A stretch of 64,000 nt of DNA. Source: a virus. Lineage: Duplodnaviria; Caudoviricetes. Shown here in pieces: positions 1-8,339 of this stretch. A program made the position numbers and the translations under genes. The notes under the pieces were generated by a model that saw nothing but the letters and a program-made list of their open reading frames with translations, did no database searches and was not told the DNA's origin. How positions within the stretch are numbered: position 1 is the first letter of the stretch; each line of letters begins with the position of its first letter. Location: the IMG/VR virus record IMGVR_UViG_3300020577_007013; one strand, 5' to 3'.

Positions 1-191
1 CATAAGTCAAGTATTTTCCGGTATTTATGAAGTGCTGCCGGACGTTATAGAGTCCACAATTATAGAGAGCTCTTGAATTGTAGCAGAGAAATTCCAGTAC
101 TTCAAATTCTTTTTTCGAGACTTTCTTAATTCGACAACTTAGTGTTTTGTACACATAAGTTAGTTATTTGAAGCCAAATAAAATTTATTTG

Positions 192-614
192 TTAATCTAT
201 TGACTTGAGGAACTCGATTACTTTAGAGAGGTGGCTTTCTACAGATTCTCTGTTATAACCTAGAAGATGAATTCCTAATCTGAAAGTGTAGTTTAGGTGT
301 CCTTCTTCTGAATAGTGAATCTCCATATTGTAGGGATGCACTTTAGTAAGTTTAGCATTTTTTGCAAAGACTTCCATTGCGAATGCTTTGTATGCAAAAA
401 TTATTTTAGCAGGATCAAGTGGAGAAGCAAAAGAGAGATAGGCGTGTGGATCTCCGTCATGTCCAATGCAACTCCAGACAGTTACGAAATTCTGAAGATG
501 ATTTATTTCAGAGAGATATGGAATTATTTCAAGATCGACTTCATTTTTAAAGATGGCAGTAACGAGCTTCTCTATTTGCTCTGATTTGTACCTGATGAAG
601 TCTTCAATTTTCAT
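192..614 (-). CDS. Hypothetical protein with TYW3/Taw3-like N-terminal motif
   Basis: EVDLEIIPYLSEINHLQNFVTVWSCIGH resembles the D..I..L...IN.....T.SSC.G motif of TYW3-like proteins. Confidence 0.4.
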   Translation of the reverse strand: MKIEDFIRYKSEQIEKLVTAIFKNEVDLEIIPYLSEINHLQNFVTVWSCIGHDGDPHAYLSFASPLDPAKIIFAYKAFAMEVFAKNAKLTKVHPYNMEIHYSEEGHLNYTFRLGIHLLGYNRESVESHLSKVIEFLKSID

Positions 615-939
615 TTAAGTCTTCAATGAGTTGATCGAGAGCTTTCTTATAATTTCTTATCGTGAGAATAGCAATCGTGAGAAAGATACTACAGAAAGCT
701 ATTCCTATACAAAGACCAGAGACAAGTCCAAGTTTAAAGTCAAGACTCACTTGGATTTCCTCTCACATTTGAATGTCAATGAGCCTCTAAATGGCTTGAT
801 ATCTTTCGATCCTTTAGTGGTGCATTGTTCAAAGGATCTGAAAGTAGAGTCATCATGGTAGACTTGATTCTTGCCATGAAAAACTTTCAGTGTGAATATG
901 AGAATCCATTCTGCCATTTGAGTCTCCTTTTTATTATTT

Positions 940-1016
940 TGGTGTCTCCGGCAGGATTCCAACCTGCGACCTGTCGATTAGAAATCGAATGTTCTATGCA
1001 GCTGAACTACGGAGAC
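940..1016 (-). tRNA. tRNA-Arg(TCT), CCA encoded
   Basis: Reverse complement folds as GTCTCCG TA GTTC AGCTGCATA GAAC A TTCGA TTTCTAA TCGAC AGGTC GCAGG TTGGAAT CCTGC CGGAGAC A CCA; A20 Arg identity element present. Confidence 0.93.
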
Positions 1017-1024
1017 TTTTTCTT

Positions 1025-2308
1025 TTACTCTTTCGGCGGATAACCAAGTGCTTCCACTAAGTCATTTACTTCTTTGAGTTGCTTGTCGATGTCTCTCTTA
1101 CTTGCTTCGAGAGATTCTTTTCTGTCGAGCAATTGAGTCAATTTTTCTGAAGCTTGCTTTACCTCAGCATTGTCTCTGTTCTGCTTGACCTTCTTTGCAG
1201 CTTCTTCGATGTTCTTAGCATCTAGTTGCTTGATTTCTTCTACTGTGTTCAACATGATTTTCTCCTCTTCTTTTATTTGTAAAACATTTGGTTGTGGACT
1301 TCCTGTAGCAATTTCTCCATGAAGTGGAAGTGTCTCAGAAATAGCTTCAACGTCTCCCCAAAAAGCTCCACTGTCTGAAGGATACTGATACCAGACTCCT
1401 TTCACTCTGTAGAACCAACTGTCGGGAAAACTGAAGAAGTTCTGAATCCTATATTTAATATCATTGTATACGTGAGATTCTCCTCCACCTGAAAATTTGA
1501 CTCGATGTCTCGATGGATCGATCACCTTCATCCAAGACGGATGTTCGGAGTTAAGTTTGACAAAGTCTCCGACTTCACAACGAAGTATACTGAAGTCCTT
1601 ACATTCGACGAGAGGGTATGGTTTCTTTTCTTGCATTTTAATGACTCCTACTATAAAGTCTCTGTGAATTGTGTATCCTTCTTTGATCGAGACAATTCCA
1701 TTACAGAGAAGATTTTTTACTTCTGCAGAATCGTTACCGTAATGTCTTTTTAAACCATTGTCGACTCGATTACTTCCTTGAAGAGTCTCTTTATAGTATC
1801 CTGTATAGTCGCATTTACTGTCAATGTATTCTGCTGTTGCAATCTTCAGTCGATTTCCAGGTTGTAGAGCATTGAATTCATCGTCAGAGATTGGAGTTAC
1901 TTCTACAGGTGGTATTGGTCTGTAGTCTCCAATGTGACATAGTGAGACTTGATTACTAAAGACAATACTTCCTTTTCGATCTTTGACAGTTATTGACGGA
2001 CGTTCACTCACAACTGTTTCTATTATAAACCATTCTCCTATGTAAGGAGTTAAGATACCTATAAGTGAGCTCCTCTTTTCATCGACAAGCTTTATCCAAT
2101 GACCTACATGCTTCTGTTCGAACAGAAGCGGTTTTGGCCAAGAGACAATGTCTTTTATTGATCTCCAATTGTGACGAGTAGCATGTCCATTCTCATGATT
2201 CCAAACGTATTCAGCATCTAAATGAGTGATCTCAATTGGAAAGTCTCTTGTATCAAGTTGAACTTTGCAACCGACTTTGAGGAGTTTTTCTATGTCTTCT
2301 ATCTTCAT
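1025..2308 (-). CDS. Hypothetical protein with C-terminal coiled coil
   Basis: 427-aa ORF; ATGA overlap with the upstream gene. Confidence 0.75.
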   Translation of the reverse strand: MKIEDIEKLLKVGCKVQLDTRDFPIEITHLDAEYVWNHENGHATRHNWRSIKDIVSWPKPLLFEQKHVGHWIKLVDEKRSSLIGILTPYIGEWFIIETVVSERPSITVKDRKGSIVFSNQVSLCHIGDYRPIPPVEVTPISDDEFNALQPGNRLKIATAEYIDSKCDYTGYYKETLQGSNRVDNGLKRHYGNDSAEVKNLLCNGIVSIKEGYTIHRDFIVGVIKMQEKKPYPLVECKDFSILRCEVGDFVKLNSEHPSWMKVIDPSRHRVKFSGGGESHVYNDIKYRIQNFFSFPDSWFYRVKGVWYQYPSDSGAFWGDVEAISETLPLHGEIATGSPQPNVLQIKEEEKIMLNTVEEIKQLDAKNIEEAAKKVKQNRDNAEVKQASEKLTQLLDRKESLEASKRDIDKQLKEVNDLVEALGYPPKE

Positions 2309-2688
2309 CCTAAAAGCCTCGCTAAGGAATTCTTGATTGTGTATTTCTTTTTAGGACTTTGCATATTGTCAAATGTATTGAAGTAGTCTCGACGCATTTC
2401 TTCTTCGGTTTTCTTTTTCTTCGTTTCTTTGGTTTTTTCTTTTCGTTTGGACTCTATTTCATGAAGCTCAAATTTTTCTTCAATGACCGACTCTTCGTCG
2501 AGAGTAATTTCTCTGAATTTTTGAAGAGTACACTGTTTGAGAGTCGAAATGATAGAGCCGAATTTTGCATCGATGCATCGACCTTGGAAAATGAAGACAG
2601 TATCTGCTATCATCTTCTTTTTGGAAGATATCACATAGTAGACACCTTTTCGAAGTGTCTTAAAATCTTCTGTCGATAGGTCTTTCAT
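2305..2688 (-). CDS. Hypothetical protein
   Basis: 127-aa ORF, translationally coupled to the next gene. Confidence 0.7.
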   Translation of the reverse strand: MKDLSTEDFKTLRKGVYYVISSKKKMIADTVFIFQGRCIDAKFGSIISTLKQCTLQKFREITLDEESVIEEKFELHEIESKRKEKTKETKKKKTEEEMRRDYFNTFDNMQSPKKKYTIKNSLARLLG

Positions 2689-2701
2689 TTTCTGCTTCTT
2701 A

Positions 2702-2846
2702 AGGAGCCTGTGAGATATAAGACTGATAGGGAGTTGGGGCCCATAGTCTTGCAGATGATATGTCAGTCAATGTTGGAATAGGGGCGAGGTGAGCCCAAAT
2801 GATTGACTGCTTTCCTAGTTTCACCTTAATTCTCTCACAGACTCCT
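2702..2846 (-). ncRNA. Putative structured ncRNA (multibranch, ~145 nt)
   Basis: 14-bp closing stem 2702-2715/2833-2846 (one G-U on the - strand); inner stems CAGTCAAT/ATTGACTG and AAGACT/AGTCTT; GC-richer intergenic DNA. Confidence 0.6.
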
Positions 2847-2863
2847 GAAGGAACAGAAGTCCT

Positions 2864-3307
2864 TCAATTTTTTGACAACAGACTGAAGTGTCCTCTTTTC
2901 TTCGGTTGTACTTTCAGAACAGGAGATGGTGTGTATGAAGACTGTTGAACAGCTTCAACTGGTTCTGGACGACGACGTCTCTTAGAAGACCGATGATGAA
3001 TTTCAATTCCGAACTTCTTAGCGGTGTTGTAGAATAGAGAGAGTTCTGAAGTAGACTTAAAAAAGTCGATCACCTTATGTTTTGGATTCTCCATGAACTT
3101 TTCAAACTTACGTGCAGTTTGACGAATTGTCTCTGCAGTATGTTTGCGGTTCGTTCTCGGATATTTGAATCCGTTGCTCTGGATAAGGTAGAAAAGATTG
3201 TTTCGAGTGACTTTGTTTTTCTTACAAAACTCATCAATCGTTTGCTTTCCTACTTTCCTGCTCTTAACGAATTTTTTGTAAAGCGATTTTGCATTTTGTT
3301 TTTTCAT
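2864..3307 (-). CDS. Basic protein, possible helix-turn-helix DNA binder
   Basis: 147 aa, Lys/Arg-rich; TIDEFCKKNKVTRNNLFYL is HTH-like. Confidence 0.5.
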   Translation of the reverse strand: MKKQNAKSLYKKFVKSRKVGKQTIDEFCKKNKVTRNNLFYLIQSNGFKYPRTNRKHTAETIRQTARKFEKFMENPKHKVIDFFKSTSELSLFYNTAKKFGIEIHHRSSKRRRRPEPVEAVQQSSYTPSPVLKVQPKKRGHFSLLSKN

Positions 3308-3372
3308 GAATATTTATAATAAGCTTCGAGAGACTCGACTTACGAAATTTTTCCTGAAGGGACTAACTCCCT

Positions 3373-4137
3373 ATGAAAAGGATTCTCCTGTTCTTCTCTA
3401 TTGTGCTTTCTATTAAAGCTTCTCCGAAAATTGTAGCAATTGCATTAGACGGTGTAAATGAAGAAGAAGGAATAAGAGAAAAGCTAATGAAATTCGGTAA
3501 GTATTACAAATACTGGTTCGGTAAATTGAAACAATGTAGAGTAGAAAGAACCGGAAATATGAGTCTTCCGGCTTATGCAAATTTTTTATCAGGTACCTCC
3601 AATCACAATGTTAAGTCCAATGATGTAGATGAGAAGATTAATAGGAAGACTTTACTCGATCTCTTTCCTAACAGTCAATTGTTCTCTGCATGGAGTCCTA
3701 TTCTCTATGTGGTGGGAGAATCAGAAGATAATGCTCATATGACTTCAGCAGAGTTTTACCCAAGAAAAGGAGATGATAGAGACATCTTAGAGAATTTCAA
3801 GAAAAAATACAATAGACAACAATTTGCTTTTATACATTTTTCTGACGGAGATAATTTCGCTCACTCTATGATGTATGAGAAATACAGAAAAGCTGTCAAT
3901 AAAGAAGTGAGATATGTGAAAGAGATCATCGACTTTGTTGAAGATGATACAACCGTAATAGCTTTCACAGACCATGGAAGAGGTCTTGGACATGATTGGA
4001 CTTCACATGGAGATTGGTTAGACGAGTCCGGAGATATCTGGATGGTGGTCTATTCTAAGAATAAACTCGATCTATCAAAATTCAAATGTGGACATGTAGA
4101 ATTGCATCATCTGATCAAGTCGATTTTAAACCGTTAA
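3373..4137 (+). CDS. Alkaline phosphatase-superfamily metalloenzyme with signal peptide
   Basis: IALDG, SLPAY, HFSDGDNFAH and FTDHGRG..HG motifs; hydrophobic N-terminus. Confidence 0.8.
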   Translation: MKRILLFFSIVLSIKASPKIVAIALDGVNEEEGIREKLMKFGKYYKYWFGKLKQCRVERTGNMSLPAYANFLSGTSNHNVKSNDVDEKINRKTLLDLFPNSQLFSAWSPILYVVGESEDNAHMTSAEFYPRKGDDRDILENFKKKYNRQQFAFIHFSDGDNFAHSMMYEKYRKAVNKEVRYVKEIIDFVEDDTTVIAFTDHGRGLGHDWTSHGDWLDESGDIWMVVYSKNKLDLSKFKCGHVELHHLIKSILNR

Positions 4138-4547
4138 TCAAAAAAGTCATCTTCGTAGCAGTGCTTTTTTACAAGTCTCTTAAGTTTGAAGAAACTGAAA
4201 AAGTTTAGATGCCCTTTGAGTGGACCAGCATTGAGGAATTTGAGAAGTAGATTGCAATATTTGAGATGTCGATTTCCTTTTTTAATGAAGTAGCTTACTT
4301 GCTTATTCTTTTCTTCAAGGTCCTTAACTATCGCTTCTAATTCTTTGTCGGTGAGTTTTCCATGATTCTCAGTCATGGTTAAGAGAGTCTCTATTGCGTC
4401 TTTCACCTTGAGTGTGATTGTGTGACCGACCCATTCTGCCTTGACTTTATGCCTTTCGATGTGTTTAATGAGAGCGCACTTATAATATGTCTCTATGTAC
4501 AGGAACACTCCTAAAACTATGAGAATTGTGCCAATAATCAAGCTCAT
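4134..4547 (-). CDS. Membrane-anchored hypothetical protein
   Basis: N-terminal transmembrane helix; 137 aa. Confidence 0.65.
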   Translation of the reverse strand: MSLIIGTILIVLGVFLYIETYYKCALIKHIERHKVKAEWVGHTITLKVKDAIETLLTMTENHGKLTDKELEAIVKDLEEKNKQVSYFIKKGNRHLKYCNLLLKFLNAGPLKGHLNFFSFFKLKRLVKKHCYEDDFFD

Positions 4548-4921
4548 TTTCTTTTCGAAAGCTCAGTAGAGATTTGATCTCGAGAAAAAACTAAGAATTT
4601 TCCTGACTCTAAGAACTTGTCGTAATTGTCAAGCCAGGATTGAAGAGTCTTTTTTCTAGTACAACGTAGTGTCGCACTTATTCCCATCAAAGATCTTCTT
4701 TCTTTTTGAATAATTTTACGCATTGGATGGTACCATCATTTCATGAAGTCTTGCAGCAGCACATGAAAAGTCTCTTATCTTCATTGTCTCTTCTGATGTA
4801 GGACAAATTTTAGATTTAAAAGAGCATCTTTCAGTGAAAGGACAGATTGTATTTTTTGGAATTTTACCTTCAGACAAGAGATTCATGTTTAGATATATAA
4901 GAAACGTGAGTATTCCAATTG

Positions 4922-5227
4922 CTATTTCTTCTTATTATTGAGAAGCTTCCACAGACCTTCAAGAATATCGATATTTTGAATTCCTTCGAAGTATTCGCTA
5001 TCTTCTTTCAGCCAAGTATTTACAGACTCGAGTTTCTTCTGATCTGATTTTTCATTCTTAGTGTTGGAGTAAATTATCTTAAGCTCTTCTCCTAATACCA
5101 AAAGACGGGGAAGCTTTACCCTAACAACAGTTCCGTCAATAGTTGAGAGAACGAAATGAGGTTGTAGATCAGACTTCTGAACTGAAATTAAAAGTTTTCC
5201 GATTCTGCCAATTTCGATAATTTCCAT
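4922..5227 (-). CDS. Hypothetical protein
   Basis: 101-aa ORF within the gene run. Confidence 0.6.
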   Translation of the reverse strand: MEIIEIGRIGKLLISVQKSDLQPHFVLSTIDGTVVRVKLPRLLVLGEELKIIYSNTKNEKSDQKKLESVNTWLKEDSEYFEGIQNIDILEGLWKLLNNKKK

Positions 5228-5228
5228 A

Positions 5229-5627
5229 TTAGTTCAGTATGTCCAAAAGTTTCTCTCTATATCTGTTGTCTCTTTTCATGTAGAATGGACTTATCTCTAT
5301 GGCTCTGAATCCTTCAGGAAGTTCAAAGTCATACTCTACTAAGTCAAGATCTTTCTTTTTCTTGAGAATCAGTTGTATGAATTCCTCTTCCTCAATGCCT
5401 TCGTAGTTATTTGTGGAAGTGACAAGAAAAGTTGACTTATCTTCTGTAGTGAAAATGGTATTGTTTTGGTAGAAATCTCCAAATCCTATGTTCTGTCTAA
5501 ATCTCGTTGCATAGAAAAAGAGTTTAGGATTATCTCTGAATTTGAACTTAAGACATGAGCAGTCAGCAATTGATCCTTGATATCTTCTTACATCTATACA
5601 TTGAACAAATCCAGAAAGGTCACGCAT
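5229..5627 (-). CDS. Hypothetical protein with the shared C-terminal tag
   Basis: 132 aa; ends RYREKLLDILN. Confidence 0.7.
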   Translation of the reverse strand: MRDLSGFVQCIDVRRYQGSIADCSCLKFKFRDNPKLFFYATRFRQNIGFGDFYQNNTIFTTEDKSTFLVTSTNNYEGIEEEEFIQLILKKKKDLDLVEYDFELPEGFRAIEISPFYMKRDNRYREKLLDILN

Positions 5628-6081
5628 CTTTTACCAACTCCATGACTTTATGATGGTAAGAAATTGGAAGAAGCAATTTGTTGATAGGAAAAATCTGAAA
5701 TCCTTGAGACTCAATCTCCTTGTCAAGATTCTTTGCTCCTCTCATATAAGGATCTTTGATAATGGAAGCAACTTTTGTAAAGTCTGTAAAGCTGACATGA
5801 CTGGAAATAAAGATTCCTTCTTTGGTTACTCCCACTGAAGTGACTGAGATTTTGAGAGAAGATCCTAATGTGTCAAATGGTTCGCAGATCACAAGATAGT
5901 TTTTCAATTGTCTGAAGTCTGGATGATTGACAGGTTGATCTGTAAAAGAGTATCTCCCAAAATCAACTGCAAACTCCTTGAATTTATTGTCTGTTTGAAA
6001 TTCTTTGGATTGAAAATGATTCGGGAAAAAATACTTCTCCAGTACTTTTTCAAGAATGTCAAGTACTAGAGTTGGGTTCAT
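5620..6081 (-). CDS. Hypothetical protein with the shared C-terminal tag
   Basis: 153 aa; ends SYHHKVMELVKDA. Confidence 0.7.
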   Translation of the reverse strand: MNPTLVLDILEKVLEKYFFPNHFQSKEFQTDNKFKEFAVDFGRYSFTDQPVNHPDFRQLKNYLVICEPFDTLGSSLKISVTSVGVTKEGIFISSHVSFTDFTKVASIIKDPYMRGAKNLDKEIESQGFQIFPINKLLLPISYHHKVMELVKDA

Positions 6082-6084
6082 TTG

Positions 6085-7098
6085 TTATAGTCTCTTTGTT
6101 CTTTTCTTCTTAAAACAATTTGCATTGTAAAAGTCTGTCATATTCTTTCTCATCCAAGCAGCAGGACTCTGTATTTCGTTATCTAAGACTTTCCTTAATT
6201 TAGGAATCCATCCTAGCTTAGAAAAGTCTATTCCAGAATTTAGAATCTTAGATTCCAGTCTCTTGATTTTTTCATACTTAAGTTTTTTATTCTCTTGTCT
6301 TTTATGTAGTTTTCTTCCTCTACAAGTTCCTAGTCTTTGTTTTTCTATGATCTCCTGAATATCATATTTAATTGACTTTTTTTCTTTCTCTTTTAGAAAA
6401 TTCAAGAACTTTTGAAATTCTTCATTGGGATTTTTATAAAAATTTACTCCAGCAATTCTGTAAATTATCCATCCGTCTGACTCTAACTCTAAGTCTCTTT
6501 TTTCATCATGAAGAATTTGTTTTTCCTTTAAATGCTGTTTTCCGTCCATCTCTAAGTCGATCTTAAATTCTAGAATAGCAAAGTCTAGAAAGTATCTCCC
6601 ACATCTGAATTGAAAGACATGATCTATTTTATTTTGAATAAGAAGAGACTCTAAGATTGATTCCAATCTAGACTTATTATTTATCATTTTCTTAGAATGA
6701 TACCAATTATTTCCTCTCCCTTCTCTATGAGCTTTTTTATGAGACTCTGAGAGTCTTCTTTTTGTCTCGTCACTTTTTGATAATTTTCTAGTAGGATTCT
6801 CTATCCAATTTTTTTTAAGTGACTCACTAAGCTTCTTTTTGATAAGGTCAGATTTCTCTTTTCCGTAAAATTCTTCCATAGAAAGTCCTTTTCTGGACTT
6901 AATCTGAATTCCGAGTCTTTCAAAATATTCTTTTTTTCTCCTTTTAGGAAATTTTCCTTTACAAGACTTTGAATGTATTGCCCTATTATGCTTTATCAGA
7001 AAATTACATTTCAGACATTTCCAATCTTCTGTGTAGAGATGTCTGTATTCGTCTTGTCTTTTTTCTCTTAGTTGTGTCCTTTTATTTCCAGATTGCAT
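6085..7098 (-). CDS. Free-standing homing-endonuclease-like protein (NUMOD3-like repeat plus DUF559/Vsr-like PD-(D/E)xK domain)
   Basis: SDETKRRLSESHKK; YFLDFAILEFKIDLEMDGKQH...DEKRDLELESDGWIIYRI. Confidence 0.8.
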   Translation of the reverse strand: MQSGNKRTQLREKRQDEYRHLYTEDWKCLKCNFLIKHNRAIHSKSCKGKFPKRRKKEYFERLGIQIKSRKGLSMEEFYGKEKSDLIKKKLSESLKKNWIENPTRKLSKSDETKRRLSESHKKAHREGRGNNWYHSKKMINNKSRLESILESLLIQNKIDHVFQFRCGRYFLDFAILEFKIDLEMDGKQHLKEKQILHDEKRDLELESDGWIIYRIAGVNFYKNPNEEFQKFLNFLKEKEKKSIKYDIQEIIEKQRLGTCRGRKLHKRQENKKLKYEKIKRLESKILNSGIDFSKLGWIPKLRKVLDNEIQSPAAWMRKNMTDFYNANCFKKKRTKRL

Positions 7099-7122
7099 TG
7101 TTTATTAAGTTATAGTAGTATA

Positions 7123-7160
7123 AAACGAGGCCCTAAGATATAGCTTTGTACCAGGGCCTC
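7123..7160 (-). terminator. Rho-independent terminator ending the ncRNA
   Basis: GAGGCCCT...AGGGCCTC followed by GTTTT on the - strand. Confidence 0.6.
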
Positions 7161-7605
7161 AACCATTTCCATGGTCATAGGCAATTAATGAGATAACTTT
7201 TCCATTTAACTGTAAGCTAATTTTTATTAGAGACGTCATAGCATTCGACTATTTCGGCCCTCATACAACAATGGGACTTATTGTATCAGGCGCCGAAATT
7301 GGGAGTTCAACCCAAACCTTCTCTTGATTTGTCTTACAGACTCGATTTATCTCTACCTACTATACTAAGATTAGGGTGAATAATCTGAGTTTCATAAAGT
7401 CCATCAACCATTTCTGATTGACGCGTTTACCTTTCGCCATCTCCACGTTCAGAATACCTTTTTCAGATACTCTCAGCGTGGAGACCTCTTTTGACAGAGG
7501 AAGGACTTTTTAATTCAGTCTTATTTTCAATCTTAGTCTGGGCGACGGTTCCTATGAACCGTCTCACCCTTTGCTCAACCTAGATAGCGAATCTAGTTGA
7601 GCTAA
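7123..7605 (-). ncRNA. Large structured ncRNA with two circularly permuted tRNA-like (Y-RNA-like) domains
   Basis: ~490 nt ORF-free region packed with stems; T-arm, loop-closed acceptor, D-arm order at 7229-7324 and 7396-7509. Confidence 0.75.
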
Positions 7606-7610
7606 TTTTC

Positions 7611-8339
7611 TCATCCGAAGATGAACTTCATTATGTCATTTCCAATTGTAGATCTTTCAACCTCAACTGAATTTGCTTCCTCTCTCGCAACCTTGACAGC
7701 TTTAGAAAGCTTGTCAATTTTATTTAAGAGGTCATTCTTTCTGTCCTGAGTTGTCGTACCAGAAAAACGAATTGTTGTGAACTGACCGACCACTTCGTCT
7801 CTGTAGAGAATTTCTGATTGTTCAGGATGTTTGTCAGTAGCTTTAGCTTTTGTAAAACTGAAAGGTTGCTTTAACGTTCTGTTTGTGCTTCTACCTTCAG
7901 TTTTGAAAAGACCACCGTCTCCTAAAGTCCATTTTTCAGCAGGATCTTGAACTGGGAATTTGTCGACAAAGGTCTTCAGATCTACCAACTGCTTCTCTAA
8001 GAAGATCAGATGAGTTGCAGGAACATCAGAAGCAATTACAGTACCGTCTACTGTAATGTTAGCTTTCGCTTTACAGTTTCCGTTATCGAGAGTTGCGACA
8101 ATGTTGATCAGATCGACAGTAGAGTCGTATGCATCTTTAATAGATTGCTCTACTGTGTACTGAACGATCTTAGACTCCGGTGGAAGAGTATCTTTCGAGT
8201 CGTCTGCTAAGGGCTTGTAAGTCTTATTGAATCCTTCGAAAAGATCTGATTTTTGGAGTTTGTGATACACCTCAGAGATCTTCGAAGTTCTTCTTGATTT
8301 TTCACCATTTGCAATGGCGATTACTTGTGTTAATTTCAT
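7611..8339 (-). CDS. Conserved uncharacterised coiled-coil protein, putative ncRNA partner
   Basis: KLTQVIA, TYKP...LPPE, VPATHLIFLEKQL, ATDKHPEQ, FSG and AREEAN match a widespread bacterial/phage hypothetical family (recognised from memory). Confidence 0.8.
   Translation of the reverse strand: MKLTQVIAIANGEKSRRTSKISEVYHKLQKSDLFEGFNKTYKPLADDSKDTLPPESKIVQYTVEQSIKDAYDSTVDLINIVATLDNGNCKAKANITVDGTVIASDVPATHLIFLEKQLVDLKTFVDKFPVQDPAEKWTLGDGGLFKTEGRSTNRTLKQPFSFTKAKATDKHPEQSEILYRDEVVGQFTTIRFSGTTTQDRKNDLLNKIDKLSKAVKVAREEANSVEVERSTIGNDIMKFIFG

What the first reader, a model, noticed from the sequence alone, without database searches (positions are those of the whole stretch)
940..1016. tRNA-Arg has a reversed elbow pair (C19:G56), shared with the tRNA-mimic domain
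Seen: D-loop AGCTGCATA (G18 C19) and T-loop TTGGAAT (G56), a compensatory swap of the near-universal G19:C56 pair. Mimic domain 2 has the same swap (AATGCTA / TTGAACT), while domain 1 keeps GG with a C. The covariation supports real L-shaped folding of both RNAs. Inference: the swap evades, or is tuned to, an elbow-reading host factor.
Basis: partly seen in the sequence, partly recalled or inferred. Interest (0 to 1): 0.7.

Follow-up and report, generated by a model that had tools for sequence, protein, structure and literature searches.

The report
Arginine tRNA with flipped elbow pair
This phage's only tRNA in the window is an intact arginine tRNA whose normally G-C "elbow" contact is flipped to C-G; the flip is real and keeps the shape, but it recurs in bacterial and phage arginine tRNAs, so it is an uncommon natural variant, not evidence of a trick against the host.

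Summary
Observation confirmed. The tRNA-Arg(UCU) at 940-1016 (- strand) has G18-C19 in the D-loop and G56 in the T-loop. All other tRNA landmarks are standard. Domain 2 of the nearby structured RNA (7229-7324) has the same C/G arrangement.

The pairing is far beyond chance. Of 623 distinct tRNAs parsed here, 31 of the 32 with G56 have GC and no GG in the D-loop. U56 goes with A19 and A56 with U19. The tRNA-like domains of the RNA family beside the DUF7873 gene show the same covariation, which supports L-shaped folding of both RNAs.

The "evasion or tuning" inference is not supported:
- C19:G56 is the native state of chromosomal tRNA-Arg(CCU) in several bacterial phyla. In two complete tRNA sets it is the only flipped tRNA.
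- Four phages with a swapped mimic domain have 0 of 107 swapped tRNAs.
- One phage with 9 of 39 swapped tRNAs has a standard mimic domain.

Most likely this is a working AGA-decoding tRNA carrying a tolerated alternative pair of the same shape. AGA makes up 69% of arginine codons in the window.

This scan has flagged flipped tRNA elbows before on other DNA (93 notes in at least 92 genomes), including phage tRNA-Arg(UCU). Interest is modest.

The parts
940..1016 (-). tRNA-Arg(UCU) gene with encoded CCA
   Evidence: ARAGORN; Rfam RF00005 62.5 bits
995..1003 (-). D-loop AGCUGCAUA: G18 = 999, C19 = 998, A20 = 997
   Evidence: read; same as the common bacterial Arg D-loop except G19 to C (alignment A3)
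956..962 (-). T-loop UUGGAAU: U55 = 961, G56 = 960, A58 = 958
   Evidence: read
980..982 (-). anticodon UCU (reads AGA, and AGG by wobble)
   Evidence: AGA is 69% and AGG 8% of Arg codons in 42 long ORFs of the window
7229..7324 (-). Domain 2 of the structured RNA, a circularly permuted tRNA-like module. Order: AGAGA, AGGU, T-arm UUGGG-UUGAACU-CCCAA, acceptor 3' strand UUUCGGC followed by GCC, capping hairpin, acceptor 5' strand GCCGAAA, D-arm GUCG-AAUGCUA-UGAC, UCUCU. The G56 equivalent is 7308 and the C19 equivalent is 7241.
   Evidence: stems covary with L167, L169 and L170; 19:56-type covariation across the family
7396..7509 (-). Domain 1 of the structured RNA: D-arm GCG-AAAGGUAAA-CGC (GG kept) and arm CCUCU-GUCAAA-AGAGG (6-nt loop with a C)
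   Evidence: coordinates from note e1-5759313; homologues carry a standard TTCRA T-loop with GG
7122..7610 (-). Whole non-coding RNA between the DUF7873 gene and an intrinsic-terminator-like hairpin
   Evidence: MFE -178 kcal/mol, z = -9.1 against shuffles; conserved downstream of DUF7873 in relatives
7611..8339 (-). DUF7873 (PF25283) gene that always precedes the RNA
   Evidence: Pfam E 1e-82; 99 homologues; 350 relatives in IMG/VR

Best explanation
The gene at 940-1016 is a functional elongator tRNA-Arg(UCU). It supplies decoding of AGA, the dominant arginine codon of this AT-rich 254-kb T4-like phage. Its elbow keeps a Watson-Crick tertiary pair between D-loop position 19 and T-loop position 56, but with the bases exchanged (C19:G56). 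The exchanged pair has nearly the same shape, so it keeps the L-shape and the flat outer face that elbow-binding partners stack on. It is one of a recurrent class of natural alternatives (C:G, A:U, U:A) that turn up preferentially in arginine tRNAs of both bacteria and phages. It is therefore best read as a tolerated, probably near-neutral variant. It may have been inherited from a tRNA-Arg(YCU) lineage that already had it, or fixed by a compensatory double change. It is not a phage device against a host factor. The C:G pair in domain 2 of the nearby RNA is a separate event, fixed in that RNA's clade. It shows that the mimic domain uses the same tertiary contact. Shown here: gene integrity, the swap, covariation, occurrence in cellular genomes, lack of coupling across phages, codon usage. 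Inferred: expression, charging by ArgRS, neutrality.
For: The tRNA is intact: 62.5 bits, 7-bp acceptor stem, U8, A14, G15:C48, G18, A20, A21, U33, C35, U54, U55, A58 and CCA. AGA is 69% of Arg codons. Position 19 always matches position 56. In 100 distinct tRNA-Arg sequences the pair is GC 60, CG 22, AU 11, UA 4, GU 1, other 2, so 98% paired (the sample was enriched for variants). A metagenome scan left position 19 open. It gave 7 distinct non-G19 tRNAs, all tRNA-Arg and all compensated. For cellular genomes, a T-arm scan of one genome per species gave 23 loci with tRNA-Arg(CCU) carrying AGNUGCAUA and UUGGAAU. In the full tRNA sets of a Terriglobus chromosome (46 tRNAs) and a Pseudomonadota MAG (36 of its 40 Rfam matches were fetched), only Arg(CCU) is flipped. 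In Acidobacteriota, 10 C19 and 2 U19 occur among 94 genomes whose Arg(CCU) matched the pattern. In 401 Pseudomonadota, all 3 C19 cases are CCU. Arg is enriched within phage tRNA sets: 7 of 10 Arg against 16 of 85 other tRNAs, Fisher P = 0.0016. There is no coupling with the mimic RNA. A paper cites earlier work in which an engineered G19C/C56G double mutant kept aminoacylation (PMC3602588).
Against: Nothing here shows expression, charging or neutrality. G19:C56 is kept in about 99% of tRNAs of ten control jumbo phages (4 of 270 non-standard) and in every other tRNA fetched from two bacterial genomes. So base identity is normally under selection, and its release in tRNA-Arg is unexplained. The restriction to Arg(CCU) in bacteria could point to a specific reader instead of drift. 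Swaps cluster in some phage genomes (about 25% of tRNAs in G001-G004), which suggests lineage-specific pressure. With only 77 nt, inheritance and independent flipping cannot be told apart. The window tRNA is 96% identical outside the anticodon arm to a flipped bacterial Arg(CCU) (L306) and 91% to a standard metagenomic Arg(UCU) (L478), and two of the three or so differing bases are positions 19 and 56. Most search patterns were Arg-type, which inflates the apparent Arg bias.
Confidence: 0.65

Rival explanations
1. The flip is adaptive. It tunes the elbow to, or hides it from, a factor that reads the bases of the 19:56 pair. Candidates are a modification enzyme such as TruB or TrmA, the D-loop-binding domain of ArgRS, a nuclease, or one of the phage's own tRNA-repair or CCA-adding enzymes. 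The same factor would act on the tRNA and on mimic domain 2.
For: Both RNAs of this phage carry C:G, although each state is rare: 4 of 69 distinct domain-2-type modules and about 1% of tRNAs in control jumbo phages. In bacteria the flip is confined to one isoacceptor, Arg(CCU), which is what a specific reader would predict. Swaps cluster in particular phage genomes. Earlier notes report a large tRNA repair and CCA-enzyme cluster elsewhere in this genome (e1-5759290; not checked here). A plant protein-only RNase P does require C56 (table in PMC5039416), so base-specific reading of the elbow exists in nature.
Against: No coupling across phages: G006-G009 have a swapped mimic domain and 0 of 107 swapped tRNAs, and G001 is the reverse case. 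The same flip is native in host-type chromosomal tRNAs, so it cannot mark a tRNA as phage-derived. All three alternative pairs (C:G, A:U, U:A) occur in tRNA-Arg, which fits 'any Watson-Crick pair will do' better than one tuned identity. No paper in the searchable library describes a defence that reads the elbow. The known phage tRNA escapes change the anticodon loop (PMC10264068, PMC11464382).
Confidence: 0.2
2. The phage captured a flipped tRNA-Arg(CCU) from a bacterium, possibly its host lineage, and changed the anticodon from CCU to UCU. The flip would then be pure inheritance.
For: The nearest sequence in the collection is a bacterial Arg(CCU) with C19:G56 (L306). It is 86% identical overall and 96% outside the anticodon arm, with an identical acceptor stem, D-loop, variable loop and T-arm. 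In these searches the flip occurred in bacteria only with anticodon CCU.
Against: The 21-nt T-arm match was the search criterion, so part of the identity is by construction. A standard Arg(UCU) (L478) is nearly as close. Flipped Arg(UCU) genes are common in other phages (L011, L029, L040, L058, L092, L109, L118, L120). The bacteria carrying it are from high-G+C groups as far as I know (G+C not measured here), unlike this 36% G+C phage.
Confidence: 0.25
3. The swap is an assembly or sequencing artefact, or the gene is a decaying pseudogene.
For: There is one U27.C43 mismatch in the anticodon stem.
Against: An artefact would need two independent errors 38 nt apart that happen to be complementary. 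The same state recurs in dozens of independent assemblies. The Rfam score is high and all other conserved positions are intact.
Confidence: 0.03

Closest known systems
Standard bacterial elongator tRNA-Arg (E. coli argU/argW type; Rfam RF00005)
   Same: Cloverleaf, 9-nt D-loop AGCUG-N-AUA with A20, 5-nt variable loop, T-arm GCAGG/CCUGC, C35, A37, CCA.
   Different: C19:G56 in place of G19:C56; U32 in place of the more usual C32; a U27.C43 mismatch.
Chromosomal tRNA-Arg(CCU) with C19:G56, found here in Terriglobus and other Acidobacteriaceae, in Hyphomonadaceae/Marinicaulis and other Pseudomonadota MAGs, in Thioalkalicoccus and in Vampirovibrionales
   Same: Identical D-loop, variable loop and T-arm, including the flip. 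One of them (L306) also has an identical acceptor stem.
   Different: Anticodon CCU, not UCU; G+C-rich anticodon stem; mostly G73; cellular, not viral. In those genomes it is the only flipped tRNA.
Flipped-elbow tRNA-Arg(UCU/CCU) genes of other uncultured phages (L011, L029, L040, L058, L092, L109, L118, L120, L083), and the earlier scan notes e1-5340615 and e1-5665621
   Same: Same isoacceptor family, same GC/G56 arrangement, and found in large phage contigs.
   Different: Different acceptor and anticodon stems. Some of those phages flip many tRNAs (G001 9 of 39, G002 10 of 36). Here only one tRNA is visible in the 64-kb window.
Engineered G19C/C56G double mutants of E. coli tRNA
   Same: The same exchange. 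The double mutant is reported to keep aminoacylation, while single mutants that break the pair lose it (PMC3602588, citing its references 29 and 30).
   Different: Laboratory constructs in another tRNA. I read the original papers only through that citation.
Phage tRNAs that escape anticodon nucleases (T5-type tRNAs; the tRNA-Lys that neutralises PARIS)
   Same: Phage-encoded tRNAs with sequence changes proposed or shown to defeat host tRNA-cutting defences (PMC10264068, PMC11464382).
   Different: Those changes lie in the anticodon loop and stem, where the nucleases bind. No defence that reads the elbow turned up in my paper searches, and this flip also occurs in host chromosomes.
For the mimic domains: two-piece (permuted) tmRNA genes and circularly permuted tRNA genes
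   Same: The order is T-arm and acceptor 3' strand first, then a linker, then the acceptor 5' strand and D-arm. The place of the anticodon stem is taken by a helix leading into the rest of the RNA.
   Different: No G3:U70, no tag reading frame found, not called by ARAGORN or Rfam. There are two such domains in one RNA, always next to DUF7873.

Membership tests
tRNA (Rfam RF00005), elongator type | Cloverleaf with a 7-bp acceptor stem, D-arm, anticodon arm and T-arm, scoring above the curated threshold | tested here: met
   62.5 bits against a gathering score of 29; ARAGORN call
tRNA (Rfam RF00005), elongator type | Conserved tertiary nucleotides U8, A14, G18, A21, U33, U54, U55, A58, and the G15:C48 pair | tested here: met
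   Read from the alignment; all are present
tRNA (Rfam RF00005), elongator type | G19:C56 elbow pair | tested here: not met
   C19:G56. The Watson-Crick pairing is kept and only the base identities are exchanged, so this is not a reason to exclude the gene from the tRNAs.
Bacterial tRNA-Arg identity set (A20, C35, U/G36, A/G73; identity elements recalled from the ArgRS literature, not re-read here) | A20 in the D-loop, C35, U36, purine at 73 | tested here: met
   A20 = 997, anticodon UCU, A73. Charging itself is not testable with these tools.
Functional (expressed, charged) tRNA | Mature transcript present and aminoacylated during infection | not testable with these tools
tmRNA, two-piece form (considered for the structured RNA) | G3:U70 alanine identity pair, a tag reading frame, detection by ARAGORN or Rfam | tested here: not met
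   The acceptor stems have C3:G70 (window), U3:A70 (L169) and U3.G70 (L167). No tmRNA call. I saw no convincing tag frame when reading.
DUF7873-associated RNA with two permuted tRNA-like domains (unnamed family) | Lies directly downstream of a DUF7873 gene; each domain has a T-arm, acceptor helix and D-arm with covarying stems and covarying D-loop/T-loop bases | tested here: met
   All 4 modules with G56 have GC, all 3 with U56 have GA, and 13 of the 14 with G55 have CG or AG in place of GG; the 14th (L234) was read as GA by the positional rule.
Phage tRNA that escapes a tRNA-targeting defence | A sequence change at the nuclease's recognition site that is absent from host tRNAs and protects the tRNA from cleavage | tested here: not met
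   The same change is native in chromosomal tRNA-Arg(CCU). Protection itself is not testable here.

The most novel reading that the evidence does not exclude
The 19:56 elbow pair is not a purely structural contact but part of an isoacceptor-specific signal. In several bacterial phyla, only the AGG-reading tRNA-Arg(CCU), and in phages mainly arginine tRNAs, carry a flipped or replaced pair, because a still unidentified factor reads the bases of the elbow. Candidates are the D-loop-binding domain of ArgRS, a T-loop modification enzyme, or a nuclease. In this phage the same factor, or one of the phage's own tRNA-repair or CCA-adding enzymes, would also act on the permuted tRNA-like domain of the DUF7873 RNA.
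Probability: 0.15. Interest if true: 0.7.

Novelty: new member of a known kind. Interest (0 to 1): 0.33.

Why it matters
G19:C56 is taught as a near-invariant tRNA contact, and many partners dock on it, including RNase P and the ribosome's L1 stalk.

- **It is replaceable.** This report adds one more clean natural example that the pair can change as long as it stays Watson-Crick.
- **The variant is patterned.** It is the native state of tRNA-Arg(CCU) in several bacterial phyla and is enriched in phage arginine tRNAs. That gives a concrete way to ask whether any enzyme reads the bases of the elbow.
- **It supports the neighbouring RNA.** The same covariation, at 19:56 and at 18:55, is good comparative evidence that the two permuted tRNA-like domains of the widespread DUF7873-associated phage RNA really fold like tRNA elbows. 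This helps the separate study of that RNA.
- **Limits.** For this phage the tRNA itself is ordinary codon supply. I found no description of natural C19:G56 bacterial or phage tRNAs in the searchable papers, but this scan has seen the phenomenon many times.

Tried and rejected
- **Close relatives in cultured phages.** Megablast of window 1-6000 found nothing. blastn of the tRNA found only generic tRNA similarity of 82% or less over most of its length.
- **The window's own contig.** It is not in IMG/VR, and no whole genome is held. The phage's other tRNAs could therefore not be listed.
- **Single-protein searches of IMG/VR.** Searches with the 427-aa neighbour and with DUF7873 alone found nothing. 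Only the DUF7873 alignment worked.
- **Longer relative contig.** L524 (13.9 kb) holds no tRNA, so I could not test whether close relatives share the tRNA flip.
- **tmRNA reading of the structured RNA.** Rejected: no G3:U70, no tag frame, no ARAGORN or Rfam call.
- **Rfam.** No family matches the structured RNA. Only chance-level hits appeared.
- **DUF7873 fold.** The AlphaFold model is confident (pLDDT 89). Foldseek against the PDB gave no hit at E 0.001 or better. The VIA-align wide search gave only helical-hairpin matches with Z below 8. No function can be read from this.
- **Positional rule for D-loop positions 18 and 19 in the mimic domains.** It mis-registers some loops. Only the dinucleotide-level result is used.
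- **"Nearest relative is a flipped bacterial Arg(CCU)" as proof of capture.** Rejected, because the T-arm was the search key and a standard Arg(UCU) is almost as close.

Full report
**What is at the coordinates.** ARAGORN finds one tRNA in the 64-kb window, tRNA-Arg(UCU) at 940-1016 on the - strand. Rfam's tRNA model scores it 62.5 bits against a threshold of 29. Read, it has:
- a perfect 7-bp acceptor stem and a 4-bp D-stem;
- the D-loop AGCUGCAUA;
- an anticodon loop UUUCUAA and a 5-nt variable loop AGGUC;
- the T-arm GCAGG-UUGGAAU-CCUGC;
- A73 and an encoded CCA.

The D-loop equals the common bacterial arginine D-loop AGCUGGAUA except at one base (alignment A3). The numbering is therefore secure: G18 (window 999), C19 (998), A20 (997). 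In the T-loop, U54, U55 and A58 are standard and position 56 is G (960). The only irregularity is a U27.C43 mismatch.

**The surroundings.** The window belongs to an uncultured AT-rich (about 36% G+C) T4-like phage. It has rIIA, the topoisomerase II large subunit and an NAD-dependent ligase. Earlier notes of this scan give the genome as 254 kb, matching the 253,865-bp contig on record for its DUF7873 protein. In 42 long ORFs of the window, AGA is 69% and AGG 8% of arginine codons. A UCU-anticodon tRNA is what such a genome would be expected to carry.

**The mimic domain.** Between the DUF7873 gene (7611-8339, Pfam E 1e-82) and a terminator-like hairpin lies a roughly 490-nt non-coding stretch. 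It folds far better than shuffled sequence (z = -9.1).
- *Domain 2* is a circularly permuted tRNA-like module. It runs T-arm UUGGG-UUGAACU-CCCAA, acceptor 3' strand UUUCGGC plus GCC, a capping hairpin, acceptor 5' strand GCCGAAA, then D-arm GUCG-AAUGCUA-UGAC. The anticodon-stem halves AGAGA and UCUCU lead out into the rest of the RNA.
- *Domain 1* keeps GG and a C.

**Is the pairing more than chance?** I collected tRNAs in several ways and parsed them with ARAGORN. Among 623 distinct tRNAs:

| Position 56 | tRNAs | D-loop content |
|---|---|---|
| G | 32 | all 32 have GC; 31 lack GG |
| U | 21 | 20 have GA |
| A | 7 | 5 have GU |
| C | 562 | 552 have GG |

For the G56 row, the binomial probability at a 1/4 chance is about 5e-18. 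In an alignment of 100 distinct tRNA-Arg sequences, the 19:56 columns read GC 60, CG 22, AU 11, UA 4, GU 1, other 2. That is 98% paired, on a par with the helices. This sample was deliberately enriched for variants, so its proportions are not frequencies.

A metagenome scan with position 19 left open (GTAGTTCAGCTGNATAGAACA) returned mostly G19. It also gave seven distinct non-G19 sequences. All seven are tRNA-Arg and all are compensated, A19 with U56 or U19 with A56.

**How rare is it, and where does it occur?**
- Ten jumbo phages chosen for an unrelated reason (they carry DUF7873) have 4 non-standard elbows among 270 tRNAs. Only one of these is a true compensated swap.
- Four phages that were found because they carry a G56 tRNA have many swaps: 9 of 39, 10 of 36, 3 of 9 and 5 of 15. 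Swaps therefore cluster in particular genomes.
- Within those four genomes, leaving out the tRNA that brought each one in, 7 of 10 arginine tRNAs are swapped against 16 of 85 others (Fisher P = 0.0016).

**The decisive result: cellular genomes.** I scanned one genome per prokaryote species for the window's variable-loop-plus-T-arm 21-mer. It hit 32 loci, and 23 of them hold a tRNA-Arg(CCU) with D-loop AGNUGCAUA and T-loop UUGGAAU. These come from Acidobacteriaceae (including a complete Terriglobus chromosome), Hyphomonadaceae/Marinicaulis and other Pseudomonadota MAGs, Thioalkalicoccus, a Novosphingobium MAG and Vampirovibrionales.
- I fetched all 46 tRNAs of the Terriglobus genome and 36 of the 40 Rfam tRNA matches of one Pseudomonadota MAG. 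In each, tRNA-Arg(CCU) is the only flipped tRNA. The other three arginine isoacceptors are standard.
- In 201 Acidobacteriota genomes, the Arg(CCU) pattern matched in 94, with C19 in 10 and U19 in 2. That tally includes one unpublished genome, G041, which has the standard G19.
- In 401 Pseudomonadota genomes, four carry a non-G19 arginine-type D-arm. The three with C19 all have anticodon CCU.

The flip is therefore a native, isoacceptor-restricted trait of some bacteria, not a phage invention.

**Inherited or independent?** The nearest sequence in my collection is a flipped bacterial Arg(CCU), L306. It is 86% identical overall and 96% outside the anticodon arm, with the same acceptor stem. However, the T-arm was the search key. 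A standard metagenomic Arg(UCU), L478, is 91% identical outside the anticodon arm, and two of the three or so extra differences are positions 19 and 56 themselves. Seventy-seven nucleotides cannot decide this, so I leave it open.

**Do the tRNA and the mimic domain share the flip for a common reason?**
- DUF7873 has 99 homologues in the protein collection and 350 relatives in IMG/VR. The RNA follows the gene in nearly all loci examined.
- Close relatives (L167, L169, L170) have covarying T-, acceptor and D-stems but the same AAUGCUA and UUGAAYU loops. The flip is therefore fixed in that RNA clade.
- Across the family the loops covary. Most modules have UUC with GG. All 4 with UUG have GC, and all 3 with UUU have GA. 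Of the 14 with G at position 55, 13 have CG or AG in place of GG, which is an 18:55 covariation; the 14th (L234) was read as GA by the positional rule. This supports tRNA-like elbows in both domains.
- The two kinds of swap do not travel together. The four phages with a swapped mimic domain (G006-G009) have 0 of 107 swapped tRNAs. G001, with 9 of 39 swapped tRNAs, has a standard mimic domain.

The co-occurrence in this phage is thus not part of a general rule. A lineage-specific cause cannot be excluded, because no relative with both features could be fetched (L524 has no tRNA).

**Mechanism.** The exchanged pair keeps Watson-Crick geometry and the flat outer face of the elbow.
- One paper cites earlier work in which an engineered G19C/C56G double mutant retained aminoacylation, while breaking the pair abolished it (PMC3602588).
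- Base-specific reading of C56 does exist elsewhere. A plant protein-only RNase P loses activity on C56 mutants (table in PMC5039416).
- The near-total conservation of G:C in other tRNAs implies some selection on base identity, so a reader cannot be dismissed.
- Why arginine tRNAs are freer is unexplained. Two possibilities are inference only. ArgRS binds the D-loop next to the pair through A20 (recalled knowledge). And tRNA-Arg(CCU) serves a rare codon and may be under weaker selection.
- Known phage tRNA escapes from host nucleases involve the anticodon loop, not the elbow (PMC10264068, PMC11464382).

**Comparison and novelty.** This is a tRNA-Arg gene with an uncommon but recurrent elbow variant. 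I found no paper that describes natural C19:G56 in bacterial or phage tRNAs. Absence from the searchable library is weak evidence, because tRNA databases surely contain such genes. This scan has flagged flipped elbows 93 times in at least 92 genomes. These include a phage tRNA-Arg(UCU) (e1-5340615) and a jumbo phage whose swaps are partly shared with host arginine tRNAs (e1-5665621). Those notes agree with what I found independently.

New here:
- the Arg(CCU)-only pattern in two bacterial tRNA sets;
- the covariation table for the DUF7873 RNA family;
- the negative test of coupling between the tRNA swap and the mimic-domain swap.

**Verdict.** The structural inference (real L-shaped folding) is supported. 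The evasion or tuning inference is not supported. Interest is modest.

Noticed in passing
window 7122-8339 (-); loci L171-L256: The DUF7873 gene plus a downstream RNA with two circularly permuted tRNA-like domains is widespread in large phage contigs (350 relatives in IMG/VR). In many homologues the acceptor 3' strand is followed directly by N-CCA (ACCA, TCCA or GCCA) and then a 6-10-nt linker before the 5' strand. This suggests the RNA may be cut there into pieces with tRNA-like CCA ends. The window has GCC followed by U.
   Followed up: partly
L172, L185, L188, L191, L195, L197, L198, L219, L226, L228, L234, L251, L252, L254 (mimic domains): In 14 distinct mimic domains the T-loop has G at position 55 (UGC...). 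In 13 of them the D-loop has CG or AG in place of GG; the 14th (L234) was read as GA by the positional rule. This is the same A18/G55-type rewiring that earlier notes report for whole tRNA sets (e1-5691493, e1-3284676).
   Followed up: partly
G001 (the 199-kb IMG/VR contig that holds L120), loci L156-L157: Most of the roughly 39 tRNAs of this 199-kb phage contig have A, not U, at T-loop position 54 (loops such as AUCGAAG and AUCGUGC). This is another departure from the standard U54:A58 contact. All five of its arginine tRNAs have non-G:C elbows.
   Followed up: no
G001 L158:1561-1634 and G002 L161:7847-7924: ARAGORN calls tRNAs with anticodon CUA (labelled Pyl) in two jumbo phage contigs. These are candidate amber-suppressor tRNAs and hint at stop-codon reassignment.
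   Followed up: no
L322 (Calothrix MAG contig JAHHGX010000056.1), 1528-4280: A dense array of about 17 tRNA genes holds three with replaced elbow pairs: Pro C19:G56, Arg(ACG) A19:U56, and a Met with A56. It looks like a mobile tRNA array or a prophage, not the core tRNA set.
   Followed up: no
window 192-614 (-): A 140-aa ORF about 330 nt downstream of the tRNA gives a weak Pfam hit to TYW3, a wybutosine-pathway methyltransferase (E 5e-5, 23.2 bits, below the 27-bit cut-off). It may be chance.
   Followed up: no
window 6085-7098 (-); L169:1320-2258: A DUF559/MTES_1575 endonuclease-like gene lies next to the DUF7873-RNA unit in the window (downstream) and in relative L169 (upstream). It may be a homing-type endonuclease that travels with the unit.
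   Followed up: no
L174/L199 2500-3281: In one 336-455-kb phage lineage a Cpn10 gene sits between DUF7873 and the RNA. The acceptor-capping linkers of both domains are expanded to 118 and 230 nt. Domain 2 there has D-loop AAUCGUA with a standard UUC T-loop, an exception to the 18:55 covariation.
   Followed up: no
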